Source: Thermoplasmata archaeon (lineage in GTDB: Archaea; Thermoplasmatota; SW-10-69-26; JACQPN01; JAJPHT01). From it: a DNA stretch of 64,000 nt. Location of the stretch: NCBI GenBank assembly GCA_034667685.1, contig JAXDQU010000106.1:11610-75609 (forward strand), read 5' to 3'. Numbering within the stretch: position 1 is the first letter of the stretch; each line of letters opens with the position of its first letter. A model generated the notes under the pieces. The model saw only the letters and a list, made by a program, of their open reading frames with translations, did no database searches and had not been told where the DNA came from. Below, one piece after another: positions 2,810 through 56,369 of the stretch. The position numbers and the translations under genes were made by a program.

Positions 2810-2846
2810 CGGAGCGCGCCAGGCCCTCGGCACGCAAAGCCCTTCG

Positions 2847-33228: not shown

Positions 33229-34401
33229 TTATCCGATCACGAGCGTCTCCTTCTCCGGCTGCCAGCCGGGCCCGAAGCGGTCGAGCCGGTAGGGCTTCGG
33301 GTCGACGGGCGGCTGGCGCCCCAGGATCAGGTCGGCGACGATGCGCGTCGTCATGGGGCTCACCATGAAGCCGTGGCCGGAGGCGCCGTTGAGCTGGAGC
33401 AGGTTGTCGACGCCGGGCGTCGGGCCGAGGATCGGCTTGTTGTCCGGCGTGACGTCGTACGCGCCGGCCCACTGGCGCATCACCTTGACCTCGCCCAGCG
33501 TGGGCAGGACGTCGAGGAGGGCGCGCGCGACGCGCTTGGTGAAGTCGAAGCTGCTCGCGAAGTTGACGCCGGGCTTCTCGCCGGGCGTGCCGATGCCGCA
33601 GACCAATTCGCCCCGCATGTCCTGGCTCGCGTAGAGGCCGTTGCGCAGGTCGACGACCATCGGGTCGAGGAACGGCTTCAACGCCTCGGTGACGAGGATC
33701 TCGTGGCGCACCGGCGTGTTGGGAAGCTCCACGCCCGCGAGCGCGGCCACCTCGCGGCTCCAGCACCCCGCGGCGTTGACCACCGTCTCGCACGCCACCC
33801 GTCCGCGCGTGGTCTCGACCGCCACGATGCGGCCCCCCGAGGTCTCGAAGCCGGTGGCGCCCGTGAAGGTGCGCACGTCGACGCCCAGCTCGACGCAGCG
33901 CTTGGCGAGCCCCTGCACGACGGCCCACGGGAAGATGATGCCGTCGCCCGGATGATAGCTCGCGGCGACGAGGCCCTCCAGGTTCAGCTCGGGCACCAGG
34001 ACGTGCGCCTCGGTGGGCTCGACGTAGCGGCTGGGCACGCCGTTGGCGTTGTGGAACTTGACGACGTCGCGCAGCGCGCGCGCCTTCTCCTCGTCGTGCG
34101 CGAGGAAGAGGTAGCCGCCCTGCCGGAACCAGACGTTGAAGCCCAATTCCTGGCTCATGCTGCGGAACATCGGGATGCTCTCGCGCGCCAGGACGAGGTT
34201 GTCGCCCGTGCCCCACTGCGCGCGCACGCCGCCGCCGTTCCGGCCGCTGGCGCCGTGCAGGAGATAGCTTTTCTCCAGGACGAGGACGTCGGTGACGCCG
34301 GCCAACGCGAGGTGGCGCGCGAGCCCCAGGCCGTTGACGCCGCCCCCGACGATCACGACCTGATATCGTTCCCGCAGCGGGCCCTCGGTGGTGAACCTCA
34401 C
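33229..34401 (-). CDS. FAD-dependent oxidoreductase, sarcosine oxidase beta / HcnC / proline dehydrogenase beta-like
   Basis: GTG start. Dinucleotide-binding YQVVIVGGGVNG. DAO-family blocks (HGASGRNGGGV, GLYASQD..GE, GASGHGFM). Confidence 0.7.
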   Translation of the reverse strand: MRFTTEGPLRERYQVVIVGGGVNGLGLARHLALAGVTDVLVLEKSYLLHGASGRNGGGVRAQWGTGDNLVLARESIPMFRSMSQELGFNVWFRQGGYLFLAHDEEKARALRDVVKFHNANGVPSRYVEPTEAHVLVPELNLEGLVAASYHPGDGIIFPWAVVQGLAKRCVELGVDVRTFTGATGFETSGGRIVAVETTRGRVACETVVNAAGCWSREVAALAGVELPNTPVRHEILVTEALKPFLDPMVVDLRNGLYASQDMRGELVCGIGTPGEKPGVNFASSFDFTKRVARALLDVLPTLGEVKVMRQWAGAYDVTPDNKPILGPTPGVDNLLQLNGASGHGFMVSPMTTRIVADLILGRQPPVDPKPYRLDRFGPGWQPEKETLVIG

Positions 34402-34667
34402 TCCGCTTCCCCCGCGAGGTAGCGCAGCGGGATGGGCTGGACGGGCGCGCGGAAGGTGATCGCGCCCAGCGCCCCGGCGGGCTGGCCCGTCTCCTCGGCG
34501 AGCATCTGGCGCGCGAGCGTCAGGCACGTCTTCCCCTGGCAGGGGCCGGTGGCGAAGCCCGTGAGGCGCTTGAGGCTCTCCAGGTCCGTGCAGCCCGCGG
34601 CGATGGCCTCGCGAAGCTCGACGTCGTTGACGTCCTCGCACGCGCATACGATGCACTTGGGGGTCAA
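34398..34667 (-). CDS. small (2Fe-2S)-binding BFD-like subunit
   Basis: 89 aa with CIVCACEDV...GPCQGKTC. TTG start 7 nt after GGAGG, overlapping the upstream stop (TTGA). Its stop overlaps the downstream GTG (GTGA). Confidence 0.5.
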   Translation of the reverse strand: MTPKCIVCACEDVNDVELREAIAAGCTDLESLKRLTGFATGPCQGKTCLTLARQMLAEETGQPAGALGAITFRAPVQPIPLRYLAGEAE

Positions 34668-35950
34668 GCGCGTGCCTCCTTCGCGGCGGCGCGCCCGGCC
34701 GCTTCGCCCTGGCGCAGGCGCTCGGCGAGGGGCGCGTCGCCCAGCACGCTGCCGCACGCGAAGACGCGCGGCGCCGGCGCGGGGCTTGCGGGCGCGAGGG
34801 CCCATCCCTTCGGCGTCAGCGCGCCGCCCGCCTGCTGCACCAATTCGACGCGCGGCGTGGCGTTGCCCGCGGCGAGCACGCAGTCGGCCTCCATGCGCTC
34901 GCCGCTTGATAGCACGACGGCCTTGACGTGGTCGGAGCCTTCGATGGCCGAGACGTCGGCGATCCGGGCCTCGGCGCCCGCCTTGCGCAGGTCGTCCGCG
35001 GCCTGCTGGCCCCAGCCCTCCGCCGAGGTGACGACGACGCGGCGCCCGGCGAGGACGCCGTGGCGGTGGAGGAGGATCAACGCGGCGCGCGCGCCCATCA
35101 CACCAGGAAGGTCGTTGCCCGGGAGGAGCGGGGGGGTCTCGTGGGCGCCGGCGGCGACGACCACCGCGCGGGGGCGGCATTCGAGGATGCGTTCGGCGGT
35201 GAGGATCGCGGCGAGGCCCGGCGCGGGAAGGGCGTCTCCGTGGCCGTCCGTGGGGTAGAGGCCGAAGACGACGCTGCGCGTCAGGACGGGGCCCGCGATA
35301 TCATTCAAGAGAGCGTCGGCCTGCGCGCGCTCGCCCAGGAGGAGCGAGCCCCCCGCGCGGTCGCCTTCGTCCACGAGGGCCACTCGGGCGCCTTCGCGGG
35401 TGGCGGCGCGCGCGGCGGCCAGGCCGCTGGGTCCCGCGCCCACGACGAGGACGTCGGCGTCGAGCTGGCCGATGGCGGGGCGGCGCGGGCCCATCGGCCG
35501 AAGGTCGGGCAGTTTGCCAAAGCCGGCCATGCGGCGCACGATCGCGTGGTGGATCGGGCGCAGCCACGGCGCGCGCGCGAACTGGCCGTGCACGTCGAGC
35601 ACGCGCGGGTAGGCGCGGTCGATCACCCCGAAGAAATCGCGCCGCGCGCTGGGGAACGCGTTCTGCGTCTCGACGACCATGCCATCATGGGCGGGCGTGA
35701 CGCAGGCGCGCACGTTGGGCACGCCGTCCACGCGCATCAGGCAGCCCGCGCACTTGCCCGTGCAGCAGAAGAGCCCGCGCGGCCGGTGGTACTTGATCGA
35801 GCGCATCAGGGTGCGCTCGCCGTGCGCGTGCAGCGCTGCGCCGACCGTCTCGCCCTCGAACGCCCGGATGGCGCGCCCGTCGAGGCGCAGCGTGATGGGC
35901 TTCCCGCGGAACGCCGAAGGGCCGGGCTCGACGCGGAGGTCGTGGGCCAT
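34664..35950 (-). CDS. SoxA/HcnB-like NAD(P)/FAD-binding subunit with N-terminal 2Fe-2S motif
   Basis: CCTGKCAGC cluster, then Rossmann VLVVGAGPSGLAAA and a second nucleotide-binding region. Confidence 0.65.
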   Translation of the reverse strand: MAHDLRVEPGPSAFRGKPITLRLDGRAIRAFEGETVGAALHAHGERTLMRSIKYHRPRGLFCCTGKCAGCLMRVDGVPNVRACVTPAHDGMVVETQNAFPSARRDFFGVIDRAYPRVLDVHGQFARAPWLRPIHHAIVRRMAGFGKLPDLRPMGPRRPAIGQLDADVLVVGAGPSGLAAARAATREGARVALVDEGDRAGGSLLLGERAQADALLNDIAGPVLTRSVVFGLYPTDGHGDALPAPGLAAILTAERILECRPRAVVVAAGAHETPPLLPGNDLPGVMGARAALILLHRHGVLAGRRVVVTSAEGWGQQAADDLRKAGAEARIADVSAIEGSDHVKAVVLSSGERMEADCVLAAGNATPRVELVQQAGGALTPKGWALAPASPAPAPRVFACGSVLGDAPLAERLRQGEAAGRAAAKEARA

Positions 35951-36029: not shown

Positions 36030-37127
36030 TCAGGCATGGTCCGCGGCGCGCGGCGCATCGTACCTGGCCCGCATGCGGCTGCGCCAGACAAGCCACCCCA
36101 ACATGGGCAGGCCGATGTCGCCCACCATGTAGAGCGTATAGAGGCCGGGCGTGACCGCGCCCTGGGTCACCAGGCCCGTCGCGACGAACGCGACCACGAT
36201 CCCGCCCGCGACGACCGGCAGCGCGACGCACGCGACGATGCCGGCGAGCTTGTCACGCATGGGCACGCCGCGCGCCGCGAGGACGAGCGATCCGAAGCCG
36301 ATCATGGCGACGAGGAGGAGGCGGCCGCGGTCCAAGGCATTGAGCCGCTCGGGCGAGACGCGGCCCGTCCAGAACACGTGGGCCAGCGGCGCGGCGACGG
36401 CGAGGACGGCGCGCTCGAGCAGGACATCGGCGCCGACGCGCAGCGCAATCCATGTGATGGCCAGGAAGAGAGCGATGAAGGCGAGGACGGCCCCCAGACG
36501 CGCGGCGAGGGCGCGCAGGCCCATGTCGTGGGCGCTCTGGAGCGCGCCGAGGGAGAGCCAGAGGACGAACCCCGCCGCGCCGATGAGGATCACGCCCGCC
36601 TGCCAGAGGACCACGTGCGCGTAATCGAACCACGCCGGCGCGTTCACGCCGACCCATCCCAGGGTGACCAGGCGCGCGACGTTCACCACGAGCACGAACG
36701 GGAGCGCGGCGAGGGTGCCGATGGCGCGCCAGCGGACCGGGGCGGGGTGAGCGACGATGGCCGCGACAAGCATGATGGCGACGGAGTAGGCGGTGCAGCC
36801 CAGGCTGATGAAGAAAGAGAAGGAGCCCGCGAACGTCACCTGGGGCCCGACGCTGCGCGCGGGCAAGCCCACCAGGCTCGCGCTCCAGGCGACCAGCGCC
36901 GCCGTGCCGTCCTGGAACGGCGGGCCCTCGTCCGGGAAGAGGAGGTACACGACGAGCCCGACGATGCTGAAAGCGAGAAGATATCGTCCGGCCACGCGCG
37001 CCTGCTCGCCCTTCGCGGCGCGGCGCAGCGACGCGTGCAGCCTCGACACGCTGGGGAGCCCAAGGTAATCGAGCCAGCGCACCTCATTGGGTCGTCGTCG
37101 TCTCGTGCAGACACCCCTGCGCGACAT
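36030..37127 (-). CDS. archaeosortase/exosortase family transpeptidase
   Basis: Polytopic membrane protein with a Cys-containing SLGCTAYS region and the downstream VVNVARLVTLGW (N-x-x-R) motif of exosortase/archaeosortase families. Start at MSRRG; a longer ORF extends to 37220. Confidence 0.55.
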   Translation of the reverse strand: MSRRGVCTRRRRPNEVRWLDYLGLPSVSRLHASLRRAAKGEQARVAGRYLLAFSIVGLVVYLLFPDEGPPFQDGTAALVAWSASLVGLPARSVGPQVTFAGSFSFFISLGCTAYSVAIMLVAAIVAHPAPVRWRAIGTLAALPFVLVVNVARLVTLGWVGVNAPAWFDYAHVVLWQAGVILIGAAGFVLWLSLGALQSAHDMGLRALAARLGAVLAFIALFLAITWIALRVGADVLLERAVLAVAAPLAHVFWTGRVSPERLNALDRGRLLLVAMIGFGSLVLAARGVPMRDKLAGIVACVALPVVAGGIVVAFVATGLVTQGAVTPGLYTLYMVGDIGLPMLGWLVWRSRMRARYDAPRAADHA

Positions 37128-37397
37128 GGGGTCACGCGGCCGCGCGTCCTTGGAGCTTGTGGAGCATTGCTTTCTTTCATCGAGAGGAACAGACAACCCC
37201 CCACGTGCTTTTGGAAACAATTCGTTATGTTAAGCTTCCTCGGTGAGCAGGTATCTAGCCTGCTCCCACGAGGCTGCATGGCACGATATACTTCCGCAAG
37301 TCACAACGATGGTCTAGTCTGTTACTTGCATGATGATATCCTTCGTGCCCCGGGCGACAGCTCGCCCGAGTGTGGAGGAATCCAATTGGCCAAAGAC

Positions 37398-39173
37398 ATG
37401 CAATCTCCGATCCGAACGCGGCTTCGCGGCAACGGCGTCCGGACGCTGCTGCTCGCGCTCGTCCTCATCGCGCCGCTCTCTCTCGCGGTCGCCGCGACGC
37501 AGCCGCAGGACGTCACCGTGCCCGCTGGGACGACCCTCACCGTGGCGGCGCCCCTCTCCGTGGGCACGCTCACCGTGCTGGGCACGTTGAAGATGGACGC
37601 GCCCGGCGACTTGCGCATCGTCGCGCAGAGCATCCACGTCGGGCCCCACGGCGTAATCGCTGGCTTCGCCGGCGCGCCCGGGCGAGACGCGCACGGCCTG
37701 GGCGCGACGGGAGCGCCAGGCCTCGACGGCGGCTCCGTGTACCTGACCGCACAGTCGGTCGAGGTGGACGAGGGCGGCTTCATCCTGGCGGGCGCGGGCG
37801 GCCACGGCGGCAACGCCGAAGGGCTCGGCCTCGTGACCGCAGGCCCGGGCGGCCAGGGCGGCTCCGTCGTCGTCCAGGCCGTCACGAGCCGGCTCGACGG
37901 CGCGCTCGTGCCCGGGGACGGCGGCGACGGCGGCAACGCGGCCGAGGTCGTCCATGACCTCGTGCTCCAGGGCGCGACGGTGGCAGGTAACGGTGGCGAC
38001 GCGGGCTGGGCTCTCCTCAATGGGCGCCCGGTCGCGCCGAGCGCCGCGCCGCCCCCGATCGTCGCGGAAGTCATCGACCTCGTCTTCTACTGCGGAGTGC
38101 CGCTCCCCCTGACTCCCGTAGGGGCTCCCGGGGCGCCGGGCGTCGTTACGCGCGGCGGGCGTGGCGGCGACGCGTGCATGAGATCCTTCAGCGCCGATGG
38201 CCTGCCGTGCGTCGGTGATGCGGGCGATGGCGAAACCCCCCACCCCACCCACGCGTCGGCCACGGCGGGCAACGGCGGCGCCGGCGGCCCGACCCAGCCC
38301 GGCGGCGCGGGCGGCACGGCCGTCGCTTGGGCCCGCTCGGGCAACGGGTCCGACGGATGCCCGGGCGCGACGACGGGCGGCGCGGCCGGCAATGGCGCGG
38401 GCGCCACGGCCGACGCGCAAGGCGGCCGGGGCGGCCAGGGCGGCCACTCCGTCGGCCTCACCGCCGGCGGCAGCGGCGGTGGCGGCGGCAGCGCGTTCTC
38501 GGAAGCATACGGCGGCATCGCCGGCAACGGCGGCAGCATCACGACGGCGATCGGCACCGGCGGCGCCGCCGGCATCGGCGGGGGCGCCTCGGCCACCGCG
38601 GTGGCCGGCGATGGCGGCAGCGGCGGCGACAACAACTCGGGCATCGGCGGTGGCGGCGGTTCGGCGAACGCGACGGCGATCGCGGGTCACGGCGGCAACG
38701 GCGGCAACGCCGGGCCCGGCCTGACTGGCGGCACCGCGGGCCTCGGCGGCTCCGGCGGCAATCCCTCGTCCTCGGCCCGTGCGGGCAGCGGCGGTGCAGG
38801 CTCGATCGGCGGTGGCGGCGGCGACGCGAAGGCGACCACCGGCGGCCCGGGTCAGAGCCCGTACGGCGGCGACGCGGGCAACATCGGCACGGCTCAGCCC
38901 GGCGGCAGTGGCGGGAGTTGGAGCGCGGTCGCCATCGCAGGCGATGGTGGCGACGGCTGCTCGAGCCCGACCCACACGCCCGTCCCGGGCAACGGCGGCC
39001 AGGGCGTGGCGTCCGGCCCCACGGGCGGTGCGCCCGGAGGCAACGGCACGCCCCACGGCCAGGCCGGCTCGAGCCTCCAGACATCCTCCGCCAACGGGAG
39101 CTCCGGCGGCATCGACGGACCCACGTGCGCGACGGGCATGCACGCCCCGCCGCCTTTCCAGGACGTCTTCTAG
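37398..39173 (+). CDS. secreted Gly-rich GGxGG-repeat protein 1
   Basis: ATG 14 nt after GGAGG. Signal peptide MQSPIRTRLRGNGVRTLLLALVLIAPLSLAVAA. ~100-aa N-terminal domain, a Cys-containing block, then ~350 aa of GGxGG-type repeats (GGNGGAGG, GGRGGQGG, GGDGGSGG). The antisense frame encodes only Pro/Arg-rich junk. Confidence 0.55.
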   Translation: MQSPIRTRLRGNGVRTLLLALVLIAPLSLAVAATQPQDVTVPAGTTLTVAAPLSVGTLTVLGTLKMDAPGDLRIVAQSIHVGPHGVIAGFAGAPGRDAHGLGATGAPGLDGGSVYLTAQSVEVDEGGFILAGAGGHGGNAEGLGLVTAGPGGQGGSVVVQAVTSRLDGALVPGDGGDGGNAAEVVHDLVLQGATVAGNGGDAGWALLNGRPVAPSAAPPPIVAEVIDLVFYCGVPLPLTPVGAPGAPGVVTRGGRGGDACMRSFSADGLPCVGDAGDGETPHPTHASATAGNGGAGGPTQPGGAGGTAVAWARSGNGSDGCPGATTGGAAGNGAGATADAQGGRGGQGGHSVGLTAGGSGGGGGSAFSEAYGGIAGNGGSITTAIGTGGAAGIGGGASATAVAGDGGSGGDNNSGIGGGGGSANATAIAGHGGNGGNAGPGLTGGTAGLGGSGGNPSSSARAGSGGAGSIGGGGGDAKATTGGPGQSPYGGDAGNIGTAQPGGSGGSWSAVAIAGDGGDGCSSPTHTPVPGNGGQGVASGPTGGAPGGNGTPHGQAGSSLQTSSANGSSGGIDGPTCATGMHAPPPFQDVF

Positions 39174-39259
39174 GAGGAGACGGCAAGAGCGTGACATCCG
39201 GAGCCGTGCGTTCCGCGCCGCACGGCTCCTCTTTTCCCTTTTCCCCAGGAGAACGACGC

Positions 39260-40909
39260 ATGGACCCCGGACGCAAGCCCCGTATCCCGCGTGCATTTGC
39301 CATCGCGTGCGCCGCGCTCGTCGCCCTGACGAGCCTCGGCGCCGCCTCGCTCGCGCAATCCGCGGGGCCCGACATTGTCGTCGCGCGGGGCGTGACGCTC
39401 ACGCTCGATGCGCCCGCGCACCTGCGCCATCTCCTCGTCCAGGGCGAGCTGGTCCTCGACCTGCCGCCCCATGCGGTCCTCGCTGCCGATGACGTCCGCG
39501 TCGCCTCGTCCGGCGCGATCCGCGGCGCCAACGGCGCGGACGCGCCCGCCGCGCGCGGCCTCGACGCGTCTGGCCTGCCAGGCGCGCCCGGCGCGAGCGT
39601 CGCGCTGCGCGTCGGCTCGCTGGTGGTCGAGCGCGGCGGCGCGATCGTTGCCGGCTCGGGCGGGCGCGGCGGCGACGCCCTCGGATCCGGCCTCCTCCGC
39701 GGCGGCCCCGGAGGCGCCGGCGGCTCGCTCCTCCTCGACGCGGCGCAGAGCAGTGTCGAGGGGCGCCTCGCGGCGGGCTCGGGTGGCGAAGGCGGCGACG
39801 CGATCGCGCTGCGCGCGCCGGCGACCGCGCAGGGCGGACGCGGCGGCGACACGGGCGTCGCGCTGCTCGACGGCGCGCCGATCCCCATGACGAATGATAT
39901 CATGCCGTCCCCGCGCTTCGCGGCCGGGTGCAGCTCGCCGCCTCTCGGCGCGCCCGGCGCGGCCGTCGTCGGCGGCGCGGGCGGATACGCCTGCATGCGC
40001 GTCGAGAGCGAGGCCGGCGCGCCCGGCCCCGCGTGCGGCCCCGGCACGGAAGGCGGGCCGGCCCTCGCCCTCGCCATCGGCGGCGACGGCGGCGACGGCC
40101 TCGCGCCTGGCGCCCCCGGAGGCGCCGGCGGCAGCGCGTTCGCGCAGGCCGACGCCGGGCAAGGCGGCGCGGGCGCGGACTGCATCACGGGCAGCGGCGG
40201 CGCCGGAGGCGTTGGCGGCCGGGCCCTCGCCCAGGCGCGCGCGGGCCAGGGCGGCCAGGGAGGCGTGGGCGCGGCGGGCGGCGCCGGCGGACTCGCCTTC
40301 GCGCAGGCGCGCGGCGGACCCGGTGGCGCAGGCGGGTCGGGCGCGCTCGCGGGAGGCGCTGGCGGCGTCGGCGGCGCGGCGGACGCCTCGGCGCTTGGCG
40401 GCGCGGGCGGCGCGGGCGGAGCGCTCGGCGCGCCCGCAGGCGGAGGCGGCCCCGGCCGCGCGGACGCTTCGGGCGGCCACGGCGGCGCGGGAGGCCGCGG
40501 CCAGACGGCGGGCGGGAATGGCGGCGAAGGAGGCGCAACCTCCGCCAACGCCACCGGAGGCGGCGGCGGGGCCGGGGATTCCGGCGGAGGCGGCGGACCG
40601 GGAATCACCAGCATCGACGCGCGCGGCGGCGACGGCGGCGCGCCCGATGGCCTGGGCGGAGCGGGAGGCGCGTGGCGCTCCATCGCCACCGGAGGCGCGG
40701 GCGGCGACGGGTGCGACGGCGGCCAGGGCGCGAACGGCGGCTTCGCGGTGGCCGGCACGCCGGGCCCAGGCGTCTCGGGCGGATCGAACACGGAAGGTGG
40801 CACGGCTCCCCCGGGCGCCGGCAGCGCCACCGCGACGCAAGGCCGGGCCGGAGCCGCGGGCGGGCCGGGCTGCATGTTGTTAGCGATCGACTGGAGGACA
40901 CCAAGATGA
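39260..40909 (+). CDS. secreted Gly-rich GGxGG-repeat protein 2
   Basis: Signal peptide MDPGRKPRIPRAFAIACAALVALTSLGAASLA. Paralogous N-terminal domain and Cys block. Long GGAGG/GGQGG repeat region. Confidence 0.55.
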   Translation: MDPGRKPRIPRAFAIACAALVALTSLGAASLAQSAGPDIVVARGVTLTLDAPAHLRHLLVQGELVLDLPPHAVLAADDVRVASSGAIRGANGADAPAARGLDASGLPGAPGASVALRVGSLVVERGGAIVAGSGGRGGDALGSGLLRGGPGGAGGSLLLDAAQSSVEGRLAAGSGGEGGDAIALRAPATAQGGRGGDTGVALLDGAPIPMTNDIMPSPRFAAGCSSPPLGAPGAAVVGGAGGYACMRVESEAGAPGPACGPGTEGGPALALAIGGDGGDGLAPGAPGGAGGSAFAQADAGQGGAGADCITGSGGAGGVGGRALAQARAGQGGQGGVGAAGGAGGLAFAQARGGPGGAGGSGALAGGAGGVGGAADASALGGAGGAGGALGAPAGGGGPGRADASGGHGGAGGRGQTAGGNGGEGGATSANATGGGGGAGDSGGGGGPGITSIDARGGDGGAPDGLGGAGGAWRSIATGGAGGDGCDGGQGANGGFAVAGTPGPGVSGGSNTEGGTAPPGAGSATATQGRAGAAGGPGCMLLAIDWRTPR

Positions 40910-42723
40910 TATCAGGACACGGAGCCCGAAGGACAAACCGATCGACCCGGCTCGCTGCGACCTGCGCGGTCGCGTTGGGCCTCGTTCTCCTGACGCCGAT
41001 CGTGGGCAGCTTCGGGACCAATGCGCCCGGGATGGACGCGAGCGTCCCTGAGGGCGCGGTGACGACGCTGCAAGGCGCGCGCTCGTTGCACGACATCGAC
41101 GTGCTGGGCACGCTCGTGCTCGACCTCGCCCCCGGCCAGACCCTCGACGCGGTCCATGTGCACGTGGGCGGCCACGGCGCGATCGTGGGTGCCGCAGGCG
41201 CGGCGGGCGCAGACGCGCAGGGACGCGACGCGCAGGGCGCCGCAGGCGCGGAGGGCGGCCGCGTGGTGATCCAGGCGGACTCCATCACGCTCGACGAAGG
41301 AAGCCTCGTGCAGGGCGGCCGTGGCGGTGAGGGCGGCGCGGCGACTGGCTACGGCGTCGTGGTCGGCGGCAACGGAGGCACGGGCGGCTTCGTGCGCGTG
41401 ACCGCGCGGGAGCGCAGCGTGCACGGCCTCATCCTGCCCGGCTCGGGCGGCGACGGCGGCGCGGCCGTCGAGATCGTCAACGCGTCGCAGGTCGTCGGCA
41501 TGAGCGTCAAGGCCGTCGGCGGGCGCGGGGGCGACACGGGCCGCGCGTGGCTCAATGGCGTCCTGGTCCCGGCCAAGCTGCCCGACCTGCCGAAGCCGCC
41601 GCTTGTCTCGATCAATCCGCCGCTCCAGTGCCCCGGCGGCGCGGCGCTCATCATCGGCTCGCCCGGGTTGCCCGAGGGCGGCCACGGCGGGACCGCGTGC
41701 ATGCTCAGCATCGGCGCCCCGGGCGCCAACGGGTCGGGCTGCGCTGGCTCGACGGGCGACGCGGGCTCGACGGGAGACGCGGCAGCGGCTGCGGCGGTCG
41801 GCGGACGCGGCGGCGACGCCGCGCTTCCGGGCGTGCCCGGCGGCGGGGGCGGCGACGCGTGGGCGATCGCGCGCGGCGGCAACGGCGGCGACGGAAACAG
41901 CTGCCTGACCGGCGGCGCGGGTGGCAACGGTGGCGGCGCACAAGCGGAGGCCGTCGGAGGCGAGGGCGGCATGGGCGGGACGCTCGGCGCCCTGGGCGGC
42001 TTGGGCGGCTGCGGCTACGCAGAGGCCAAGGGAGGGCTCGGCGGCACGGGAGGCTCGGGCTCGACCACCGGAGGCGCTGGCGGCTCGGGCGGCAGCGCGT
42101 CCGCCACGACGGACGGCGGCGACGGCGGGCCCGGCGGCCTGCCCAACGGCCTGGCCGGCGACGGCGGCTGCACGTTCACCTTCGGGGCGGGCGGCAACGG
42201 AGGCCGCGGTGGGGCCTGCACCAGCATGTCCCTCTGCACGGCCGGCACGGGCGGCAGCGCGGGCCAGCCCACCGACGCCAAGTCGCGCGGCGGACGCGGT
42301 GGCGACGGCGGGCGCGGAGGGAATGGCGGCGCGGCGCACAGCGAGGTTGACCCGCGCGGCGGGGACGGCGGCGTGCCCAATGGCCTGGGCGGGCTGGGCG
42401 GCAGCGTGAGCGTCCTGGCGGCGGGCGGCGACGGCGGGAACAGCCTCACCTGGCCCGAAGGGGGACTGGGCGGCGAGGCGAGCACGCTGATCCCCCAGGG
42501 GAGCCTCGATGGCGGCCTGGGCGGCGACGGCACCCCCGCGCTGGGCGGGGTGGTTCTCGCCGACCAATCCAAGCGGGGCGAGGATGGGGTCGGGACCGGT
42601 GGGCCTGGGCCCTCCGTTGGCGGCGCACCCACGCTCTCATCCTGGGGCGCGGCGCTCATGGCCGCCGCGCTGCTTGGCGTGGGCGTCGCCTTCACGCGGC
42701 CCCGAAGGCCCGATCAGCCCTGA
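40906..42723 (+). CDS. secreted Gly-rich GGxGG-repeat protein 3 with C-terminal TM anchor
   Basis: ATG overlaps the stop of protein 2 (ATGA). Signal peptide, paralogous N-domain, GGxGG repeats, then C-terminal WGAALMAAALLGVGVAFTRPRRP (hydrophobic helix plus basic cluster, sorting-signal-like). Confidence 0.55.
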   Translation: MISGHGARRTNRSTRLAATCAVALGLVLLTPIVGSFGTNAPGMDASVPEGAVTTLQGARSLHDIDVLGTLVLDLAPGQTLDAVHVHVGGHGAIVGAAGAAGADAQGRDAQGAAGAEGGRVVIQADSITLDEGSLVQGGRGGEGGAATGYGVVVGGNGGTGGFVRVTARERSVHGLILPGSGGDGGAAVEIVNASQVVGMSVKAVGGRGGDTGRAWLNGVLVPAKLPDLPKPPLVSINPPLQCPGGAALIIGSPGLPEGGHGGTACMLSIGAPGANGSGCAGSTGDAGSTGDAAAAAAVGGRGGDAALPGVPGGGGGDAWAIARGGNGGDGNSCLTGGAGGNGGGAQAEAVGGEGGMGGTLGALGGLGGCGYAEAKGGLGGTGGSGSTTGGAGGSGGSASATTDGGDGGPGGLPNGLAGDGGCTFTFGAGGNGGRGGACTSMSLCTAGTGGSAGQPTDAKSRGGRGGDGGRGGNGGAAHSEVDPRGGDGGVPNGLGGLGGSVSVLAAGGDGGNSLTWPEGGLGGEASTLIPQGSLDGGLGGDGTPALGGVVLADQSKRGEDGVGTGGPGPSVGGAPTLSSWGAALMAAALLGVGVAFTRPRRPDQP

Positions 42724-42778: not shown

Positions 42779-42800
42779 GGGGCTACTTGGGGGTTGCGGG
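42779..42800 (+). repeat. 22-bp direct repeat GGGGCTACTTGGGGGTTGCGGG, copy 2
   Basis: Exact copy of 35971..35992, ~55 nt downstream of the Gly-rich protein 3 stop. Confidence 0.85.
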
Positions 42801-43142
42801 TGCGGGCGTCTCCCGCTCGCGGTTGATGAGCCGCACGGCCGAGGCGCGCGTCTTGGCGCTGGGGGGCCACGCGATGTCGCGGCGCCCCTTCGCGTCGCGC
42901 TTGACGTCGTGGTCGGCGCGGGCGGGCGCGGGCGCGGCGACGGGGGCATCCCCGGCGCGGACCGCGCGCGGCGCGTGCATCGCGCGCATGACGTCCGCGC
43001 TGCGCAGCCACGCCTTGCAGCCCACGCAGGCCATCCCTCCGGCGCGGCTGAGCGTCACGAGGTGGGCCGCGTTGGCCCCCGCGCAGACGGGGCACACGAA
43101 CGGGATCAGGACGGGGGCGCGCGGAGGTGAGACGTTCAACAC
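42783..43142 (-). CDS. possible small zinc-ribbon protein
   Basis: 119-aa ORF with CPVC...CVGC (four Cys in a zinc-ribbon arrangement) near the N-terminus. Compositionally ordinary otherwise. Could be a GC-frame artefact. Confidence 0.25.
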   Translation of the reverse strand: MLNVSPPRAPVLIPFVCPVCAGANAAHLVTLSRAGGMACVGCKAWLRSADVMRAMHAPRAVRAGDAPVAAPAPARADHDVKRDAKGRRDIAWPPSAKTRASAVRLINRERETPAPATPK

Positions 43143-43173: not shown

Positions 43174-44682
43174 TTATAAGGCAGACGGGTCCGCGAGGGG
43201 TGGGAGCGCCTCCAGCGCGCCGCGCAGCGCCGGCCCTTCCGCCAGCGTGCCCACCGTGAGCACGTTGCCCATCTTGTGGACGGTCGGGTCGGTGACGCAT
43301 TTCTCGTTGCAGACGTCGACGAAGACGGCGTAGGGGCGGCCCTGGGGGTCGATGGCGGCGTCGATGAAGTCGTCCATCCCGCCGCAGCGCGTCTTGCCGC
43401 ACACGCCGCGCGCGAGGGGGTTGGCCGGGTCGTTGGCGGTGACGGTGGTGGCGACGGGGTGCGCGTCCTTCGCGTCGGTCATGACGGTGAGGTAGCCGTT
43501 CCACGAGGCGTTGGCCCACTCGGGCGGGTCCTGCGCGGGGCTGGCGATGTCGGTGACCGTGCCCTCGGGGCCGGTCTGCTTGCCCGCGTACCCGCCGGGG
43601 ATCGTCGTGGCGACGTAGGCGAACACGAGGCGGCCGTCGGCGCCCGCGGCGAGGGCGGGGAACGCGGCGGCGGTGACCTCGGGGGGCGAGACGACGAGGG
43701 CGGGCGCCCACGTGACACCGTGGTCCTTGCTCCAGGCGTAGGTGGGCAGGCCCTTGTCGCTGATCCATCCCGCGTACACGGTGCCGTTGTCGTCGACGGC
43801 GAGGTTCACGTCGTGCACGACGCCGCTGTTGATCACGGCGGAGCCCTTCGCGATGACGTGCGAGGTCCACGTGAGGCCGTCGTCCTCGGTGACGCCGATC
43901 GTGGGGTTGCGGTTGCAGCCGCCGTGCGCGAGGAAGACGCGCCCGTCCTTGTCCGTGACCGGGTGGCCCAGCGAGTCGCCCGGGCAGTCGGTGGGGTCGG
44001 TCGTCTGCGGGAAGACCGTCACGACGGGGCCGAACGTGTAGCCGCCGTTGAGCGAGGTGGCGCACTCGGTCGTGACGCCGGTGTTCGTGCACGAGTAGAC
44101 GACATTGGGATAGAGCGGGCTCACGGGGAGCATGCGCGGCTTGGCGGCGACCATGCTCTGGTGGTCCGCGATGGGGACACCCGCGCCCACGCCGCAGCCC
44201 ACGGGGCTCGTGGTCCACGTGGCGCCCGCGTCGTCCGTCCACGAGAGGATCGCGCACTCGGCGTCGTTCTCGTTCTTGTAGACGCGCCCCGTCGTCGGGT
44301 CGAGGTACATGTACGGGTCGAGCGTCTGCGGCGGCGCGTGCTGGCCCGTGGGCAGCGTGGGCCCCACGTCCTTCCACGTCAGGCCGTGGTCCTCGGAGCG
44401 CATGATGGTGGGCTCGCCAGCCTGGAACGCCTCGGCGAAGATGCGCCCCTTGCTATCAATGCCCAGCGTGGGCTCGCCGCCCGAGGCGCCGGTGGAGAGC
44501 TGCAGGCCGCGGGCGGGCAGGGGCGCGGCGGCCGGGATCGCGCCGCCGCCGAGGACGTGGACCTCGCCCGCGAGCGAGGCGGGGAGCGTCGAGGCGCTCT
44601 GGACGGGCTGGGGGACGGCGCCGGGCGCGGCGCAGCCGGCGAGCAGGACGGCCAAGGCGAGGAAGACGAGCGCGAGACGCAT
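43174..44682 (-). CDS. BNR/Asp-box repeat (sialidase-like beta-propeller) lipoprotein
   Basis: Lipobox-like LAVLLAGCAAPG. Four Asp-boxes (SEDHGLTW, TDDAGATW, TEDDGLTW, SKDHGVTW). Start at MRLALVFLAL. Confidence 0.65.
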   Translation of the reverse strand: MRLALVFLALAVLLAGCAAPGAVPQPVQSASTLPASLAGEVHVLGGGAIPAAAPLPARGLQLSTGASGGEPTLGIDSKGRIFAEAFQAGEPTIMRSEDHGLTWKDVGPTLPTGQHAPPQTLDPYMYLDPTTGRVYKNENDAECAILSWTDDAGATWTTSPVGCGVGAGVPIADHQSMVAAKPRMLPVSPLYPNVVYSCTNTGVTTECATSLNGGYTFGPVVTVFPQTTDPTDCPGDSLGHPVTDKDGRVFLAHGGCNRNPTIGVTEDDGLTWTSHVIAKGSAVINSGVVHDVNLAVDDNGTVYAGWISDKGLPTYAWSKDHGVTWAPALVVSPPEVTAAAFPALAAGADGRLVFAYVATTIPGGYAGKQTGPEGTVTDIASPAQDPPEWANASWNGYLTVMTDAKDAHPVATTVTANDPANPLARGVCGKTRCGGMDDFIDAAIDPQGRPYAVFVDVCNEKCVTDPTVHKMGNVLTVGTLAEGPALRGALEALPPLADPSAL

Positions 44683-44765
44683 GCGCGCGCACGGCCGGCG
44701 GGCACACAAAGGCGTTGTGGTGCTGTCGCAACAATCCTCCACAACGATGATCGGCGCGCGCCCCG

Positions 44766-45131
44766 ATGTCCGAGGCGGTGTCGGTTGTGCGGACCCCTCT
44801 CTTCCTCGGCATGCTCCTCGTGACGTCCCTCGTCGCCCTCGCGCCCTCGGGCAACGCCGCCGCGAACGGCTGCGTCGACGCGGGCAGCGGCATCACCGCG
44901 TGCGGCGCGGCCGTCGCGGTCGGGTGCGGCGTCAGCACGGGTGTGGGCGCGGCGACCGGCATCGTCGCGTGGACGCTCGTGAGCAGCACCGAATCGGGCT
45001 CGAAGTCGTTCAGCCTGCGCGCGCCCGCCTTCGCCGGCGCCGCCGACGCGCCGTGCACCACGGCCTCGTGCACGACGGGCTTCCTCTACGCCAACGGCGT
45101 GCTTGTCTCCGAGAGCCAGACCGTGTGCTGA
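44766..45131 (+). CDS. small secreted Cys-containing protein
   Basis: Hydrophobic leader (LFLGMLLVTSLVALAPSGNAAA) then ~90 aa with 7 Cys, ending SQTVC. Gly/Ala/Thr-rich. Confidence 0.4.
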   Translation: MSEAVSVVRTPLFLGMLLVTSLVALAPSGNAAANGCVDAGSGITACGAAVAVGCGVSTGVGAATGIVAWTLVSSTESGSKSFSLRAPAFAGAADAPCTTASCTTGFLYANGVLVSESQTVC

Positions 45132-54030: not shown

Positions 54031-54914
54031 GATAGCACCTCGGCGCGCGCGTTGGTGGGGCGCGTCAGGAGGACCTGCGCGTTGGGGGCGAGGCTCCGCA
54101 GCGCGCTCTCGACGGCCTTGGTGTCGGCCTCGCGCGCGACCGCCGCGAACGCGGGGCCCTTGCCCGAGACGCCCGCGGCGAGCGCGCCCGACGCAAGCGC
54201 GGCGCGGGTCCACCCGGGAGACGTGCCGTAGAGCGCGCCGCAGACGAGGCCGTTCATCGTCATCGCATCCGCCCAACGCCCGACCCGCGCGAGCGTGTGC
54301 GCCTCCAGCGCGAGCGGCGCGAAGGGCGCGTAAGGCAGGTCCTTGACCGAGAGAGTAGGAGTCTTGGTGGAGGGAACTAGGAGGATAACACGGAGCGACT
54401 CGTCCACGTCCTCGCGGTGGAGCACCTTCCGCTGGCGGTTGTCCGTCACGACGAGGCCCCCCTGCATGGAAGCGCTCGCATCGTCGAACGCGCCCGTGAT
54501 CGTGACGCCCGCGTCGAGCGCGGCCTCGATGGCGGCGTCGAGCAACGCCGCGCGATCCAGCGCGCGCCCCTCGTAGAGCTGGAAGGCGCGGTTCGCGGCC
54601 AACACGATGGCATTGGCCGCCGCGCTGCTGGATTTCAGCCCGCGGGTCGCGGGGATCGTGCTGGTCGTCTCGACGCGACCGCCCCAATCCGGCTCGCCCA
54701 GGCGCGCGACGACGGCCTTGAGCGCGAGACGCGCCAGCATCGGGTCCTCCGCCTCCTCCCCGTCGATCACGACCTCGACCTCGGGCACGTCCTCGAGCAG
54801 CGTCACCTTGGCCTCCGTGCGCAGGTCCACCGCGAACGCCGCCCCCGCGTGGCCCGTGACGATGGCGTTGACGACGCTCACCGCGCCCTGGGCGAACGCG
54901 CGCGCCACGCTCAT
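54027..54914 (-). CDS. aroK: archaeal GHMP-type shikimate kinase
   Basis: GHMP motif PATRGLKSSSAAANA. 295 aa, in aro operon context. ATG overlaps the upstream stop. Confidence 0.75.
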   Translation of the reverse strand: MSVARAFAQGAVSVVNAIVTGHAGAAFAVDLRTEAKVTLLEDVPEVEVVIDGEEAEDPMLARLALKAVVARLGEPDWGGRVETTSTIPATRGLKSSSAAANAIVLAANRAFQLYEGRALDRAALLDAAIEAALDAGVTITGAFDDASASMQGGLVVTDNRQRKVLHREDVDESLRVILLVPSTKTPTLSVKDLPYAPFAPLALEAHTLARVGRWADAMTMNGLVCGALYGTSPGWTRAALASGALAAGVSGKGPAFAAVAREADTKAVESALRSLAPNAQVLLTRPTNARAEVLS

Positions 54915-56368
54915 GATAGCACGCTCCGCATCGCGTCGAGGGGCGCCTCGCGGCCCGTCCAGAGCTTGAACGCGCGCGCCCCCTGGTGCAGGAGCATCGC
55001 CCGCCCGTCCACCGCCACGAGACCGCGCGCGCGGGCCTCGCGGACCAGACGCGTGCCGCCCGGCCGGTAAACCGCATCGAGCAACGCCGCCCCGGACCCG
55101 AGACGCGCGACGTCGATCGGGCTTTCGTCCTGGTGGAGCCCCACCGTCGTGCAGTTCACGACGAGCGCAAAAGGAGCAGGGTCCGCGCCCCACGGCAGCA
55201 CGGCAAAGCCCAACGCCGCCGCCTTCTCGGCCGTCCGGTTGCTGACCGTCACGCGCGCCCCGGCGCCCGCCAACGCATGCGCCACGCCACGCGCCGCGCC
55301 CCCCGCGCCCAAAACGAGCGCACCGAGCCCGCGGACCGCGACACCCGCCTCGGCCAGCGCATCGAGCGCCCCCGCGCCATCCGTGTTGTGCGCCTCCACC
55401 TTGCCGTCGCGGAACACGAGCGCGTTGGCCGCGCCCGCCGCCCGCGCCTCCGGCGAGACGACGTCCACCAGGTCCAACGCCGCGACCTTGTGCGGCACCG
55501 TCAGGCTGACGCCCAAGGGCGGCGCGGCCCGAAAGCCCGCGATCGCCGCATCCAGGTTCTGCGGCGCGACGTCCAACGCAAGATAGCACGCATCGAGACC
55601 GAGCGCGCGGAACGCCGCGTTGTGCATCGCGGGCGAAAGCGAATGCGAGACGGGATGGCCCACGACGTAGGCCGCGCGCGTCGCCGCGCCGAAGCTAGAT
55701 CTGCTGAGATCTAGCTGGACCCGGCGCAGCGCGTCGAGGGGCACCTGCCCCGCGGTCGCGGCTGGCGCGCCGGGCACGCTGCCATACGCGAGCGCGAGGC
55801 CCAGCGCGGGCGCAAGCAGGCGCAGGAACGGATCGTTGACCGCCATGATCGCGCACGGGATCTTCTCCTGGCGGGCGCGTTGGGCGGCTTCGACGAGCGC
55901 GGCGGCGTCCTGCGGGCCCTGGACGAACGTGGCGATCTTGGCGACGTCGGCGCCCAGCGCGCGCATCTGACGCAGCGTGGCGAGGAGCGCGTCGGCGCTG
56001 GGCGTGCCGGCGAGGTCGTGCTGCGAGACGATCGCCTGGGCGTCCATGGCGTGGGCTTCGGCGACGAGGGCGCGCGCTTCGTCGTTGGCGAGCTCGACGT
56101 CGATCGCCTTGGCGCCGGCCCGGAGCGCGCGGCGGAGGATATCGTTCCGGGTCTTGTCGTCAGCATGGCTACGGCCGCCGTCGTCCGCGTGGCGCATGGT
56201 GGCGATGCAGGGCTTGGCGAAGCTGAAGAACGCGCGCAGGTCCCAGGGCAGGCCGCTGGGCCCGTCGAGGCGGATCTCGATCCAGTCGGCGTGGGCCTCG
56301 GCGGCCCGGGCGCGGGCGTAGAGCTCGTCGGGCGTCTCGCCGATGGCCGTCGCGACGAGGAGCGTCAT
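54911..56368 (-). CDS. aroDE: fused 3-dehydroquinate dehydratase (type I) / shikimate 5-dehydrogenase
   Basis: N-terminal type I DHQase (IEIRLD, catalytic Lys in DVAKIATF). C-terminal AroE (HSLSPAMHNAAF, NTDGAGALDAL, LVLGAGGAARGVA). Confidence 0.8.
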   Translation of the reverse strand: MTLLVATAIGETPDELYARARAAEAHADWIEIRLDGPSGLPWDLRAFFSFAKPCIATMRHADDGGRSHADDKTRNDILRRALRAGAKAIDVELANDEARALVAEAHAMDAQAIVSQHDLAGTPSADALLATLRQMRALGADVAKIATFVQGPQDAAALVEAAQRARQEKIPCAIMAVNDPFLRLLAPALGLALAYGSVPGAPAATAGQVPLDALRRVQLDLSRSSFGAATRAAYVVGHPVSHSLSPAMHNAAFRALGLDACYLALDVAPQNLDAAIAGFRAAPPLGVSLTVPHKVAALDLVDVVSPEARAAGAANALVFRDGKVEAHNTDGAGALDALAEAGVAVRGLGALVLGAGGAARGVAHALAGAGARVTVSNRTAEKAAALGFAVLPWGADPAPFALVVNCTTVGLHQDESPIDVARLGSGAALLDAVYRPGGTRLVREARARGLVAVDGRAMLLHQGARAFKLWTGREAPLDAMRSVLS

Positions 56369-56369
56369 G

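What the first reader, a model, noticed from the sequence alone, without database searches (positions are those of the whole stretch)
37398..42723. Novel paralogous family of GGxGG-repeat (PGRS/RTX-like) surface proteins; only the third carries a C-terminal anchor
All three have a signal peptide and a conserved ~100-aa N-terminal domain. This is followed by a conserved Cys block (CGVPLPL...GGRGGDACMRSF / CSSPPLGAPG...GGYACMRVE / CPGGAALIIGSPG...GGTACMLSI), then 300-400 aa of degenerate ~13-16-residue units built on GG-x-GG-x-G followed by A-x-A/T. That pattern fits a beta-solenoid/beta-roll, possibly cation-binding via GGDGG/GGNGG. Proteins 2 and 3 are translationally coupled (ATGA). Only protein 3 ends with a tripartite tail (WGAALMAAALLGVGVAFT + RPRRP) resembling, but not matching, PGF-CTERM, which suggests a non-ArtA sorting signal. 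The antisense strand yields long Pro/Arg ORFs, which are artefacts.
Basis: partly seen in the sequence, partly recalled or inferred. Interest (0 to 1): 0.6.

Follow-up and report, generated by a model that had tools for sequence, protein, structure and literature searches.

The report
Archaeosortase locus with glycine-rich surface proteins
Three neighbouring genes of an uncultured high-GC archaeon encode secreted glycine-rich beta-solenoid proteins. The one with a C-terminal membrane tail sits beside an unclassified sorting protease that probably removes the tail and fixes the protein to the cell surface.

Summary
Three co-linear paralogs lie on the + strand: A 37398-39173, B 39260-40909 and C 40906-42723. 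They are 38-47% identical, about 29% Gly, and each has a signal-peptide-like N-terminus. Only C ends in a motif + TM + Arg tail.

The divergent upstream gene (36030-37127, -) is an exosortase/archaeosortase with the invariant Cys/Arg/His. It fits no curated subfamily: XrtH scores 48 bits against a cutoff of 86.

In two other metagenomic loci, a 38-42% identical sortase lies directly after GG-family genes. Those genes carry the same tail motif, [AV]PxLSxxG + TM + basic. All four tails best-match IPTL-CTERM (15-20.4 bits, cutoff 20.5). I recall IPTL-CTERM as the XrtH signal. Bacterial XrtH loci fetched here show TPTLSSWG-type tails next to XrtH.

The window is archaeal (aIF-2beta, ADH synthase).

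AlphaFold gives a confident two-domain beta-solenoid with about 25 aa per coil. It is neither RTX nor PGRS.

The N-terminal domain family has no Pfam or NCBIfam model. It is rare: 336 cluster representatives among 1.84 billion.

Verdict: a dedicated XrtH-like archaeosortase / IPTL-like-signal system with a new cargo family. This is a new variant of a known kind.

The parts
36030..37127 (-). Archaeosortase (exosortase/archaeosortase superfamily, XrtH-like, unclassified subfamily). The start is uncertain: ATG 37127 gives 365 aa, and the JGI GTG 37082 gives 350 aa (= P0009).
   Evidence: TIGR04178 signature scores 37.7 bits (cutoff 23). The best subfamilies are ArtB at 51 bits (cutoff 150) and XrtH at 48 bits (cutoff 86). 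C96/R137/H156 are invariant across 3 archaeal and 7 bacterial relatives. There are about 7 hydrophobic segments, and a ~165-aa C-terminal extension that bacterial XrtH lacks.
37128..37397 (.). Divergent intergenic region between the sortase and gene A. It looks locally AT-richer, and I presume it is a bidirectional promoter region.
   Evidence: Sequence read. No promoter test was made.
37398..39173 (+). GG-family protein A, 591 aa. Signal-peptide-like N-terminus and no C-terminal anchor; it ends ...GPTCATGMHAPPPFQDVF.
   Evidence: Its best match in another locus is the tail-less L013 X1 (44%).
39260..40909 (+). GG-family protein B, 549 aa. Signal-peptide-like N-terminus and no anchor; it ends ...GGPGCMLLAIDWRTPR. 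AGGAG lies before the ATG.
40906..42723 (+). GG-family protein C, 605 aa. The ATG overlaps B's stop (ATGA), and GGAGG lies 9-13 nt upstream.
   Evidence: AF2 model m53b7a75bd15d has mean pLDDT 74 and pTM 0.71.
41026..41583 (+). N-terminal beta-helix domain of C (residues ~41-226). This is the conserved family domain.
   Evidence: 10-residue-block pLDDT is 82-96 across the domain apart from one dip to 68 (residues 191-200). The profile of this region plus the Cys block finds 336 cluster representatives.
41668..42570 (+). C-terminal Gly/Ala-rich solenoid of C (residues ~255-555), about 11 coils of ~25 aa. It begins at the conserved GGxGGxAC block.
   Evidence: Predicted strands recur every 21-33 residues (mean about 25). 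pLDDT is 79-93 up to residue ~440 and lower beyond. GGxGG spacing alternates 10-13 and 3.
42625..42720 (+). Tripartite C-terminal sorting signal of C: APTLSSWG / AALMAAALLGVGVAFT / RPRRPDQP.
   Evidence: The best NCBIfam hit is IPTL-CTERM (TIGR04174) at 20.4 bits, E 4.5e-4, against a cutoff of 20.5. The same motif is present in L005 (two genes) and L013 X2.

Best explanation
The locus is a dedicated protein-sorting system of an archaeon. A, B and C are exported through Sec and fold outside the cell into long two-domain beta-solenoids. C is first held in the membrane by its C-terminal helix. The adjacent multi-pass cysteine protease is an XrtH-like archaeosortase with Cys96/Arg137/His156. It recognises the PTLSSWG motif that abuts the helix and removes the helix plus the basic tail. 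By analogy with ArtA acting on PGF-CTERM proteins, it leaves the mature protein attached to the cell surface, probably through a lipid.

A and B have no signal of their own. I infer that they are either released or held on the surface by association with anchored C, forming a glycine-rich surface fibre, adhesin or layer.

Shown: the gene structures, the paralogy, the fold prediction, the sortase family assignment, the conserved tail motif, and the sortase-cargo adjacency in three loci. Inferred: cleavage, lipid attachment, the partnership of A and B with C, and the surface role.
For: 1. The sortase is a member of the superfamily. TIGR04178 scores 37.7 bits against a cutoff of 23, and the catalytic-type Cys/Arg/His are invariant.

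2. Three independent loci pair this sortase clade with GG-family genes, in different arrangements.
- In the window the sortase is divergent and lies upstream of A.
- In L005 (74.6% GC, sortase 42% identical) at least two tail-bearing GG genes lie directly before the sortase.
- In L013 (a 427-kb contig, sortase 38% identical over its full length) tail-less X1, tail-bearing X2 and the sortase lie in a row.

3. All four tails share [AV]PxLSxxG + TM + basic. All four best-hit IPTL-CTERM at 20.4, 19.4, 16.0 and 15.1 bits. Twelve control tails never hit it.

4. The nearest relatives of the sortase are bacterial XrtH. L009, L011 and L015 score 120-135 bits against a cutoff of 86. Proteins ending TPTLSSWG (L011, directly upstream) and TPALSQWS (L009) lie beside XrtH.

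5. A different, PGF-type tail (APGFGFG...RRR) occurs on another protein in the same window, at 1922-2965. C's signal is therefore a distinct class in the same genome.

6. Homologs of the cargo elsewhere lack a tail or carry other TM+basic tails. Haft lists this among the criteria for a true sorting signal (bioRxiv 10.1101/2023.06.07.544157).

8. ArtA-dependent cleavage and lipid anchoring are established in Haloferax (PMC6098224; PMC7157517 listed).
Against: - There is no experimental or expression data.
- The sortase misses every curated subfamily cutoff.
- The tails fall just under the IPTL-CTERM cutoff.
- Only three loci are known, and two of them come from one metagenome.
- Other family members sit on short contigs with no sortase in view.
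- The sortase model failed (pLDDT 44), so nothing can be said about its active-site geometry.
- The link between XrtH and IPTL-CTERM as a curated pairing rests on my memory of the TIGRFAMs description plus the adjacency seen.
- The roles of A and B are pure inference.
Confidence: 0.65

Rival explanations
1. C is simply a tail-anchored (type I) membrane protein. Its helix is never cleaved, and the neighbouring sortase acts on other substrates.
For: There is no direct evidence of processing. The tail scores just under the IPTL-CTERM cutoff. Family members on other contigs have TM tails with no sortase in view.
Against: Adjacency recurs in three loci despite rearrangement. A conserved motif abuts the helix in all four tails. 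No other candidate substrate with this motif exists in the 64-kb window.
Confidence: 0.15
2. C is an ArtA / PGF-CTERM substrate with a degenerate signal, processed by a housekeeping ArtA encoded elsewhere.
For: The organism appears to use PGF-type tails (1922-2965). More distant family members carry PGF-like tails such as IPGF and SPGLG.
Against: C's tail has no PGF motif and no PGF-CTERM hit, but it consistently hits IPTL-CTERM. The adjacent sortase gives no ArtA hit at E<=0.01, and its L013 homolog scores 35 bits against a cutoff of 75.
Confidence: 0.07
3. The proteins are RTX-like calcium-binding beta-rolls, or PGRS-like polyglycine-II sandwiches.
For: Gly content is 28-30%, with GGDGG and GGNGG motifs. 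The top Foldseek hit is a springtail polyproline-II antifreeze protein (E 1.4e-4).
Confidence: 0.05
4. The beta-helices are secreted enzymes, such as polysaccharide lyases or glycosidases, rather than structural or adhesive proteins.
For: Right-handed beta-helices are common in lyases. Weak Foldseek hits include a fucoidan lyase and polygalacturonases. A BNR/Asp-box protein lies next door at 43174-44742.
Confidence: 0.1
5. The region is not coding on the + strand, and the long antisense Pro/Arg/Ala ORFs are the real genes.
For: Antisense ORFs of 550-780 aa exist, with GC3 up to 0.92 in some.
Against: The sense frames have homologs in other contigs at 30-50% identity. They also have SD sites, export signals, a sorting tail and an AF2 fold with pLDDT above 90 over 209 residues. 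JGI's caller also chose the sense strand.
Confidence: 0.01

Closest known systems
Exosortase H (XrtH, TIGR04177) with IPTL-CTERM (IPTLxxWG) sorting signals, in bacteria
   Same: The sortase core has the same invariant Cys/Arg/His and WF..H motif. XrtH is the best or near-best subfamily hit for all three archaeal sortases. The tail motif PTLSSWG + TM + basic is essentially the one seen beside true XrtH in L011 and L066. The target genes lie next to the enzyme.
   Different: Scores are 42-48 bits against a cutoff of 86. The host is archaeal, so there is no outer membrane. The enzyme has an extra ~165-aa C-terminal membrane extension and a VRWLDYLG N-terminal motif that bacterial XrtH lacks. In L005 and L013 the Trp of the motif is replaced (PxLSxAG, PxLSxLG). 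The cargo family is unrelated to the bacterial cargos.
Archaeosortase A (ArtA) with PGF-CTERM (Haloferax S-layer glycoprotein)
   Same: An archaeal member of the same enzyme superfamily acts on a tripartite C-terminal signal. It gives the mechanistic precedent: tail removal plus lipid anchoring (PMC6098224).
   Different: ArtA is a one-to-many housekeeping enzyme. Here the enzyme sits beside one or two targets. The motif is not PGF, and there is no ArtA model hit for the window sortase.
Archaeosortase B (ArtB) with VPXXXP-CTERM
   Same: It gives the highest raw NCBIfam score for the window sortase (51 bits).
   Different: The score is far below the cutoff of 150. The homologs P0010 and L013 score higher on XrtH. 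No VPXXXP motif is present in the tails.
IPTL-CTERM-bearing S-layer protein of Methylomirabilis lanthanidiphila (mela_00855)
   Same: It is a surface-layer protein with a signal peptide and an IPTL-CTERM tail (PMC8671808). This is a precedent for the signal marking a major surface protein.
   Different: It is from a diderm bacterium and is a 312-aa protein. I did not compare it with the GG family by sequence.
Beta-solenoid surface proteins (autotransporter passengers such as pertactin, Ag43 and IcsA; curli CsgA; tapirins; RsaA)
   Different: There is no sequence relationship. The coils are unusually Gly/Ala-rich. The export and anchoring routes differ.
Mycobacterial PE_PGRS and RTX repeat proteins
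   Same: Gly-rich GGxGG-type repeats.
   Different: There is no PE domain and no RTX nonapeptide. The period and the predicted fold also differ.

Membership tests
Exosortase/archaeosortase superfamily | Match to the signature model TIGR04178 above its cutoff | tested here: met
   37.7 bits against a cutoff of 23 for window 36030-37220(-). P0010 scores 42.3 and the L013 sortase 42.4.
Exosortase/archaeosortase superfamily | Conserved Cys, Arg and His in a multi-pass membrane protein | tested here: met
   C96, R137 and H156 are invariant in 10 aligned sequences. There are about 7 hydrophobic segments.
Exosortase H (XrtH, TIGR04177) | Score at or above the curated cutoff (86 bits) | tested here: not met
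   The scores are 48.3, 47.4 and 41.9 bits. True XrtH in L009, L011 and L015 scores 120-135 bits.
Exosortase H (XrtH, TIGR04177) | Short enzyme (about 160-220 aa) with no further domains | tested here: not met
   The archaeal enzymes are 350-365 aa and carry a conserved C-terminal extension.
Exosortase H (XrtH, TIGR04177) | IPTL-type targets encoded nearby | tested here: met
   Tail-bearing genes are adjacent or nearby in all three loci: two genes from the sortase in the window, directly adjacent in L005 and L013. The same holds for bacterial L011 and L009.
IPTL-CTERM sorting domain (TIGR04174) | Score at or above the cutoff (20.5 bits) | tested here: inconclusive
   C scores 20.4 bits (E 4.5e-4). 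The other three tails score 19.4, 16.0 and 15.1. It is the best hit in every case, and it never hits the 12 control tails.
IPTL-CTERM sorting domain (TIGR04174) | Tripartite architecture at the extreme C-terminus, with the motif abutting the TM helix and a signal peptide at the N-terminus | tested here: met
   APTLSSWG | 16 hydrophobic residues | RPRRPDQP-end.
Archaeosortase A / PGF-CTERM | ArtA model hit above its cutoff (75 bits) and a PGF motif in the target | tested here: not met
   The window sortase has no ArtA hit at E<=0.01. The L013 homolog scores 34.9 bits. C's tail has no PGF motif and no PGF_CTERM hit.
Archaeosortase B / VPXXXP-CTERM | TIGR04144 at or above 150 bits and a VPXXXP motif in the target | tested here: not met
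   The scores are 51, 41 and 36 bits. The motif is absent from the tails.
Dedicated (one-to-one or one-to-few) sorting system in the sense of Haft | [quoted passage not shown] | tested here: met
   Three of the three loci that hold this sortase clade show it. The criterion is quoted from bioRxiv 10.1101/2023.06.07.544157. The sample is small.
RTX / HemolysinCabind (PF00353) | Tandem GGxGxDxUx nonapeptides detected by the Pfam model | tested here: not met
   There is no hit at E<=1 for A, B or C, and none at E<=0.01 in the 11 family members. The period is about 25 aa.
PE_PGRS | N-terminal PE domain, and GGA/GGX triplets folding as a PGII sandwich | tested here: not met
   There is no PE hit. 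AF2 shows one beta-strand per ~25-aa coil. The PGII model is described in PMC9436101.
G8 domain (PF10162) | Score at or above the gathering threshold (22.9 bits) | tested here: not met
   A scores 15.3 and B 18.4 bits. C has no hit. I treat this only as a hint of a beta-helix N-cap.

The most novel reading that the evidence does not exclude
A previously unrecognised archaeosortase class is related to bacterial XrtH, perhaps through inter-domain transfer, and has been enlarged by a four-helix extension. It builds a heteromeric glycine-rich surface structure in an uncultured high-GC archaeal lineage. Only one subunit (C) is covalently anchored. The tail-less paralogs A and B are held by solenoid-to-solenoid contacts or by disulfides through their conserved Cys residues. 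On this reading the family would be a new type of archaeal cell-surface fibre or layer, with its own dedicated anchoring enzyme.
Probability: 0.25. Interest if true: 0.7.

Novelty: new variant of a known kind. Interest (0 to 1): 0.52.

Why it matters
Archaeosortases are currently divided into a handful of subfamilies, each with its own signal (ArtA-E; PMC6098224). Only ArtA has been studied experimentally.

This locus adds an archaeal enzyme that passes no curated subfamily model and whose nearest relatives are bacterial XrtH. It comes with a readable signal (PxLSxxG) and a small set of adjacent substrates. That gives a compact, testable enzyme-substrate pair for asking how archaeosortases recognise and process their targets. 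It is also consistent with, but does not show, movement of such systems between the domains.

The cargo is also a protein family with no model in Pfam or NCBIfam. It has a confidently predicted Gly-rich solenoid fold. Across lineages it carries three different kinds of C-terminus: none or a C-terminal Cys, a PGF-like tail, and an IPTL-like tail. That makes it a natural case for studying how sorting signals are swapped.

Tried and rejected
- **Pfam and NCBIfam on A, B and C.** Nothing was found except sub-threshold G8 hits.
- **tRNA and Rfam scans of the window.** Nothing was found.
- **Contexts of distant family members P0004, P0005, P0007 and P0008.** No sortase lies on those 5.7-12.6-kb contigs, so they neither help nor hurt.
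- **Scan of GTDB species representatives with the sortase profile.** Only distant bacterial exosortases were found (29-36% identity), with no close relative.
- **Foldseek against the PDB.** There was no meaningful global match. The top hit is a composition-driven match to a PPII antifreeze protein.
- **afdb50 fold library.** Not available.
- **PDB sequence searches with both profiles.** Nothing was found.
- **AF2 model of the sortase from a 2-sequence alignment.** Unusable, with pLDDT 44.
- **PGF-CTERM HMM on the PGF-looking tail at 1922-2965.** Only 13.5 bits, so I describe it as PGF-type by motif only.
- **Search for a second sortase or more GG paralogs in the window.** None was found.
- **Literature search for XrtH, IPTL-CTERM or archaeosortases in Thermoplasmatota.** No paper describes such a system. 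Haft 2012 (PMC3256604) is not held.


Full report
**1. What is there**

The window is about 72% GC.
- A: 37398-39173, 591 aa.
- B: 39260-40909, 549 aa.
- C: 40906-42723, 605 aa.

GC3 is 0.88-0.90 in these frames. B's stop and C's ATG overlap as ATGA. GGAGG lies 9-13 nt before C's ATG and AGGAG lies before B's ATG. The TTG start chosen for C by the JGI gene caller (582 aa) has no such site and would delete the Arg-rich n-region.

The three proteins align end to end at 46-47% identity to A in the multiple alignment and 38-42% pairwise by BLASTP. They are 28-30% Gly, 13-21% Ala and only 4-5% Asp. After the signal region is removed they contain 6, 6 and 8 Cys. Even counts would allow complete disulfide pairing; that is an inference.

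Each begins with a basic stretch followed by a hydrophobic stretch (read from the sequence; no predictor was available). Only C ends in a hydrophobic segment plus basic residues: APTLSSWG-AALMAAALLGVGVAFT-RPRRPDQP.

The long antisense ORFs are real as ORFs. They are 25-35% Pro or about 30% Ala plus Arg. All positive evidence lies on the sense strand.

**2. The fold**

AlphaFold2 was run on an 11-sequence family alignment. It gives mean pLDDT 74 and pTM 0.71, with 209 residues above 90. The model has these parts:
- Residues ~41-226 form a beta-helix. 10-residue-block pLDDT is 82-96, apart from one dip to 68.
- Residues 227-253 form a low-confidence, Pro-rich linker that contains the first conserved Cys.
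- Residues ~255-555 form a second solenoid with one 6-residue strand every 21-33 residues (mean about 25).
- This second solenoid starts at the conserved GGxGGxAC block.

This period matches the sequence, where 12-residue GGxGGxAxAxAx units alternate with 10-13-residue GGxGGxGGxxxx units. The structural repeat is therefore about 25 aa, not 13-16.

Foldseek finds nothing significant beyond a composition-level match to a springtail PPII antifreeze protein (TM 0.08/0.27).

There is no RTX or PE hit. The model also differs from the polyglycine-II sandwich proposed for PGRS (PMC9436101).

**3.

The gene 270 bp upstream on the opposite strand (36030-37127) is a multi-pass membrane protein. It passes the exosortase/archaeosortase signature model (TIGR04178, 37.7 bits against a cutoff of 23). 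It passes none of the subfamily models: ArtB scores 51 against 150 and XrtH 48 against 86.

JGI itself names the identical protein "exosortase/archaeosortase family protein". It places it on the 111.8-kb contig Ga0467038_0000142 of metagenome 3300044737, which is the source of the window.

Cys96, Arg137 and His156 (P0009 numbering) are invariant in an alignment with two archaeal homologs and seven bacterial relatives.

**4. Is the pairing real?**

The word-indexed search of 5.8 billion proteins finds only one other close homolog of the sortase: P0010, 42% identical.

Its 3.4-kb contig (L005, 74.6% GC) holds GG-family genes directly before the sortase on the same strand:
- One is the 3' end of a GG-family gene.
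- The other is a GG-family gene 50% identical to C. It is split by a frameshift, and its final ORF is counted as its 3' end.

These two gene ends read ...QAPVLSSAGMLLMGAALLAAGVVLVGRKRGA and ...QVPALSPAGMLAMSASLVVVAAFLLGRRKPGA.

A scan of JGI metagenome contigs found a third locus, L013, on a 427-kb contig. Its sortase is 38% identical over the full length. Two GG-family genes precede it:
- X1, 610 aa, is tail-less and ends GGPGCNTM.
- X2, 626 aa, ends GPAPALSPLGMLVLGGTLVSVGAIVQRRGRAGP.

All three known loci of this sortase clade therefore carry the cargo family, and in each at least one copy has the tail. The gene order differs between the window (divergent) and the other two loci (co-directional). 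This argues for selection on the linkage rather than shared ancestry of one arrangement. It meets Haft's description of a dedicated sorting system (bioRxiv 10.1101/2023.06.07.544157).

**5. What kind of signal and enzyme**

I scanned the four tails alone against NCBIfam. All four have IPTL-CTERM (TIGR04174) as their best hit, at 20.4, 19.4, 16.0 and 15.1 bits against a cutoff of 20.5. Twelve other TM+basic tails never hit it. These controls came from distant family members, from other loci and from the window's own PGF-type protein.

The sortase's nearest relatives outside its clade are bacterial, at 29-38% identity over the core. Those tested are bona fide XrtH: L009, L011 and L015 score 120-135 bits.

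Beside them lie proteins with these endings:
- ...TPTLSSWGMILLGGVLLLFGMK in L011, where the gene ends 14 nt before XrtH.
- ...TPALSQWS... in L009.

The same type of ending is seen in two further loci whose sortases I did not test against the XrtH model:
- ...VPTLSDWG... in L045.
- ...TPTLSTWG... in L066.

These bacterial cargos are unrelated to the GG family. From memory, TIGR04177 is described as IPTLxxWG-CTERM-specific, and the adjacency seen here agrees with that.

The archaeal enzymes differ from XrtH in four ways:
- They score below the XrtH cutoff.
- They have a conserved N-terminal motif, VRWLDYLG(L/M)P.
- They have a ~165-aa C-terminal extension with three to four further hydrophobic segments.
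- They are 350-365 aa long, against 180-220 aa for XrtH.

**6. Host**

The window is archaeal. It encodes the following:
- aIF-2 beta (NF008993, 251 bits, above its cutoff).
- ADH synthase (TIGR01949, 313 bits, above its cutoff).
- A 3-dehydroquinate synthase II-like protein (338 bits, below its cutoff).
- A GGGP-type prenyltransferase-like protein (211 bits, below its cutoff).

One distant family member, P0005, is labelled Thermoplasmatota archaeon by NCBI. The phylum of the window itself was not established.

The same window encodes another secreted protein (1922-2965, -) that ends in a Thr/Ser-rich linker and APGFGFGLLVIGAVIVAIALRRR. By motif this is a PGF-type tail, though the HMM gives only 13.5 bits. 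C's signal is therefore a second, distinct class in the same genome.

**7. The cargo family at large**

A profile of the N-terminal domain plus the Cys block was scored against 1.84 billion cluster representatives. It finds 336 at E<=1e-3, 101 at E<=1e-10 and 27 at E<=1e-30. No Pfam or NCBIfam model covers the family, and no PDB sequence is related.

Most strong members are 430-630 aa. Among the roughly 150 representatives listed:
- 33 end in a Cys within four residues of the C-terminus (...GPGVC).
- 24 carry other TM+basic tails, several of them PGF-like (IPGF..., SPGLG..., VPGEG...).
- None of them has the PxLSxxG tail. That tail is so far confined to the high-GC subgroup that sits beside this sortase.

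A, B and L013 X1 keep the GP(G/T)C motif close to their ends. The tail-less form therefore looks conserved rather than decayed, although B's ending (MLLAIDWRTPR) could be a remnant of a tail.

**8. Mechanism, and how far it is supported**

Shown:
- The coding frames.
- The paralogy.
- The predicted solenoid.
- The sortase superfamily membership with an intact triad.
- The conserved tail motif.
- Adjacency in three loci.

Inferred from the established ArtA precedent (PMC6098224), and from the analogous XrtH / IPTL pairing:
- The sortase cleaves at or after PTLSSWG and leaves C attached at the surface, probably through a lipid.

Speculative:
- A and B assemble on C.

I put the probability that this enzyme and this tail form a cognate pair at about 0.65-0.7.

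**9. Verdict**

The locus is best described as a dedicated XrtH-like archaeosortase system with an IPTL-like signal and a new Gly-rich beta-solenoid cargo family. That makes it a new variant of a known kind. It is of moderate interest to people who work on archaeal envelopes and on protein sorting.

Noticed in passing
window 1922-2965 (-): A secreted protein with a Thr/Ser/Pro-rich linker and the tail APGFGFGLLVIGAVIVAIALRRR. By motif this is PGF-CTERM-type, but the HMMs are weak: PGF_CTERM 13.5 bits and Heimdall-CTERM 15.9 bits, both below their cutoffs. It implies that an ArtA-type system exists elsewhere in the genome.
   Followed up: partly
window 43174-44742 (-); L001 8548-9669 (-): A secreted BNR/Asp-box (sialidase-like) protein lies just downstream of gene C. 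Another Asp-box protein lies about 6 kb from the family member P0005 in L001. The association may be chance.
   Followed up: no
L005 431-1894 and 1977-2282: A GG-family gene beside the sortase is split by a frameshift. Its last ~45 codons read as an Arg-rich out-of-frame tail, and the true C-terminus with the sorting signal is in the next ORF. This is either an assembly error or a pseudogene.
   Followed up: partly
proteins P0012-P0043 and others: 33 of about 150 family representatives end with a Cys within four residues of the C-terminus (...GPGVC...GNVC...GVCP). Window A and B and L013 X1 keep GP(G/T)C near their ends. The role of this conserved terminal Cys is unexplained.
   Followed up: no
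proteins P0035, P0045, P0047-P0049, P0070: Low-GC proteins of about 900-1170 aa share only the N-terminal GG-turn beta-helix repeats, matched in several tandem stretches, and then continue into unrelated domains. The solenoid module is therefore used more widely than the archaeal family.
   Followed up: no
window 54911-58297 (-): A cluster of the archaeal-type aromatic amino acid pathway: a fused aroD/aroE gene, 3-dehydroquinate synthase II and ADH synthase.
   Followed up: partly
window 33229-35950 (-): Sarcosine/opine-oxidase-like alpha (2Fe-2S + FAD) and beta (DAO) subunit genes lie immediately beyond the sortase. They are not present beside the sortase in L005 or L013, so they are probably unrelated to the sorting system.
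   Followed up: no
window 42783-43142 (-) and 44766-45131 (+): Two small ORFs flank the BNR gene. One is a Cys-rich, zinc-ribbon-like protein (CPVC...CVGC). The other is a small protein with a weak halo_sig_pep hit. Neither was characterised.
   Followed up: no
L004 3534-3896 (-); L001 6252-6884 (+): Other small secreted proteins in loci of distant family members also end in TM+Arg tails (APGLGTIAALGAGVLAAGVATARRR; ...AGWLLRKKL). This suggests that these archaea use C-terminal anchors widely.
   Followed up: no
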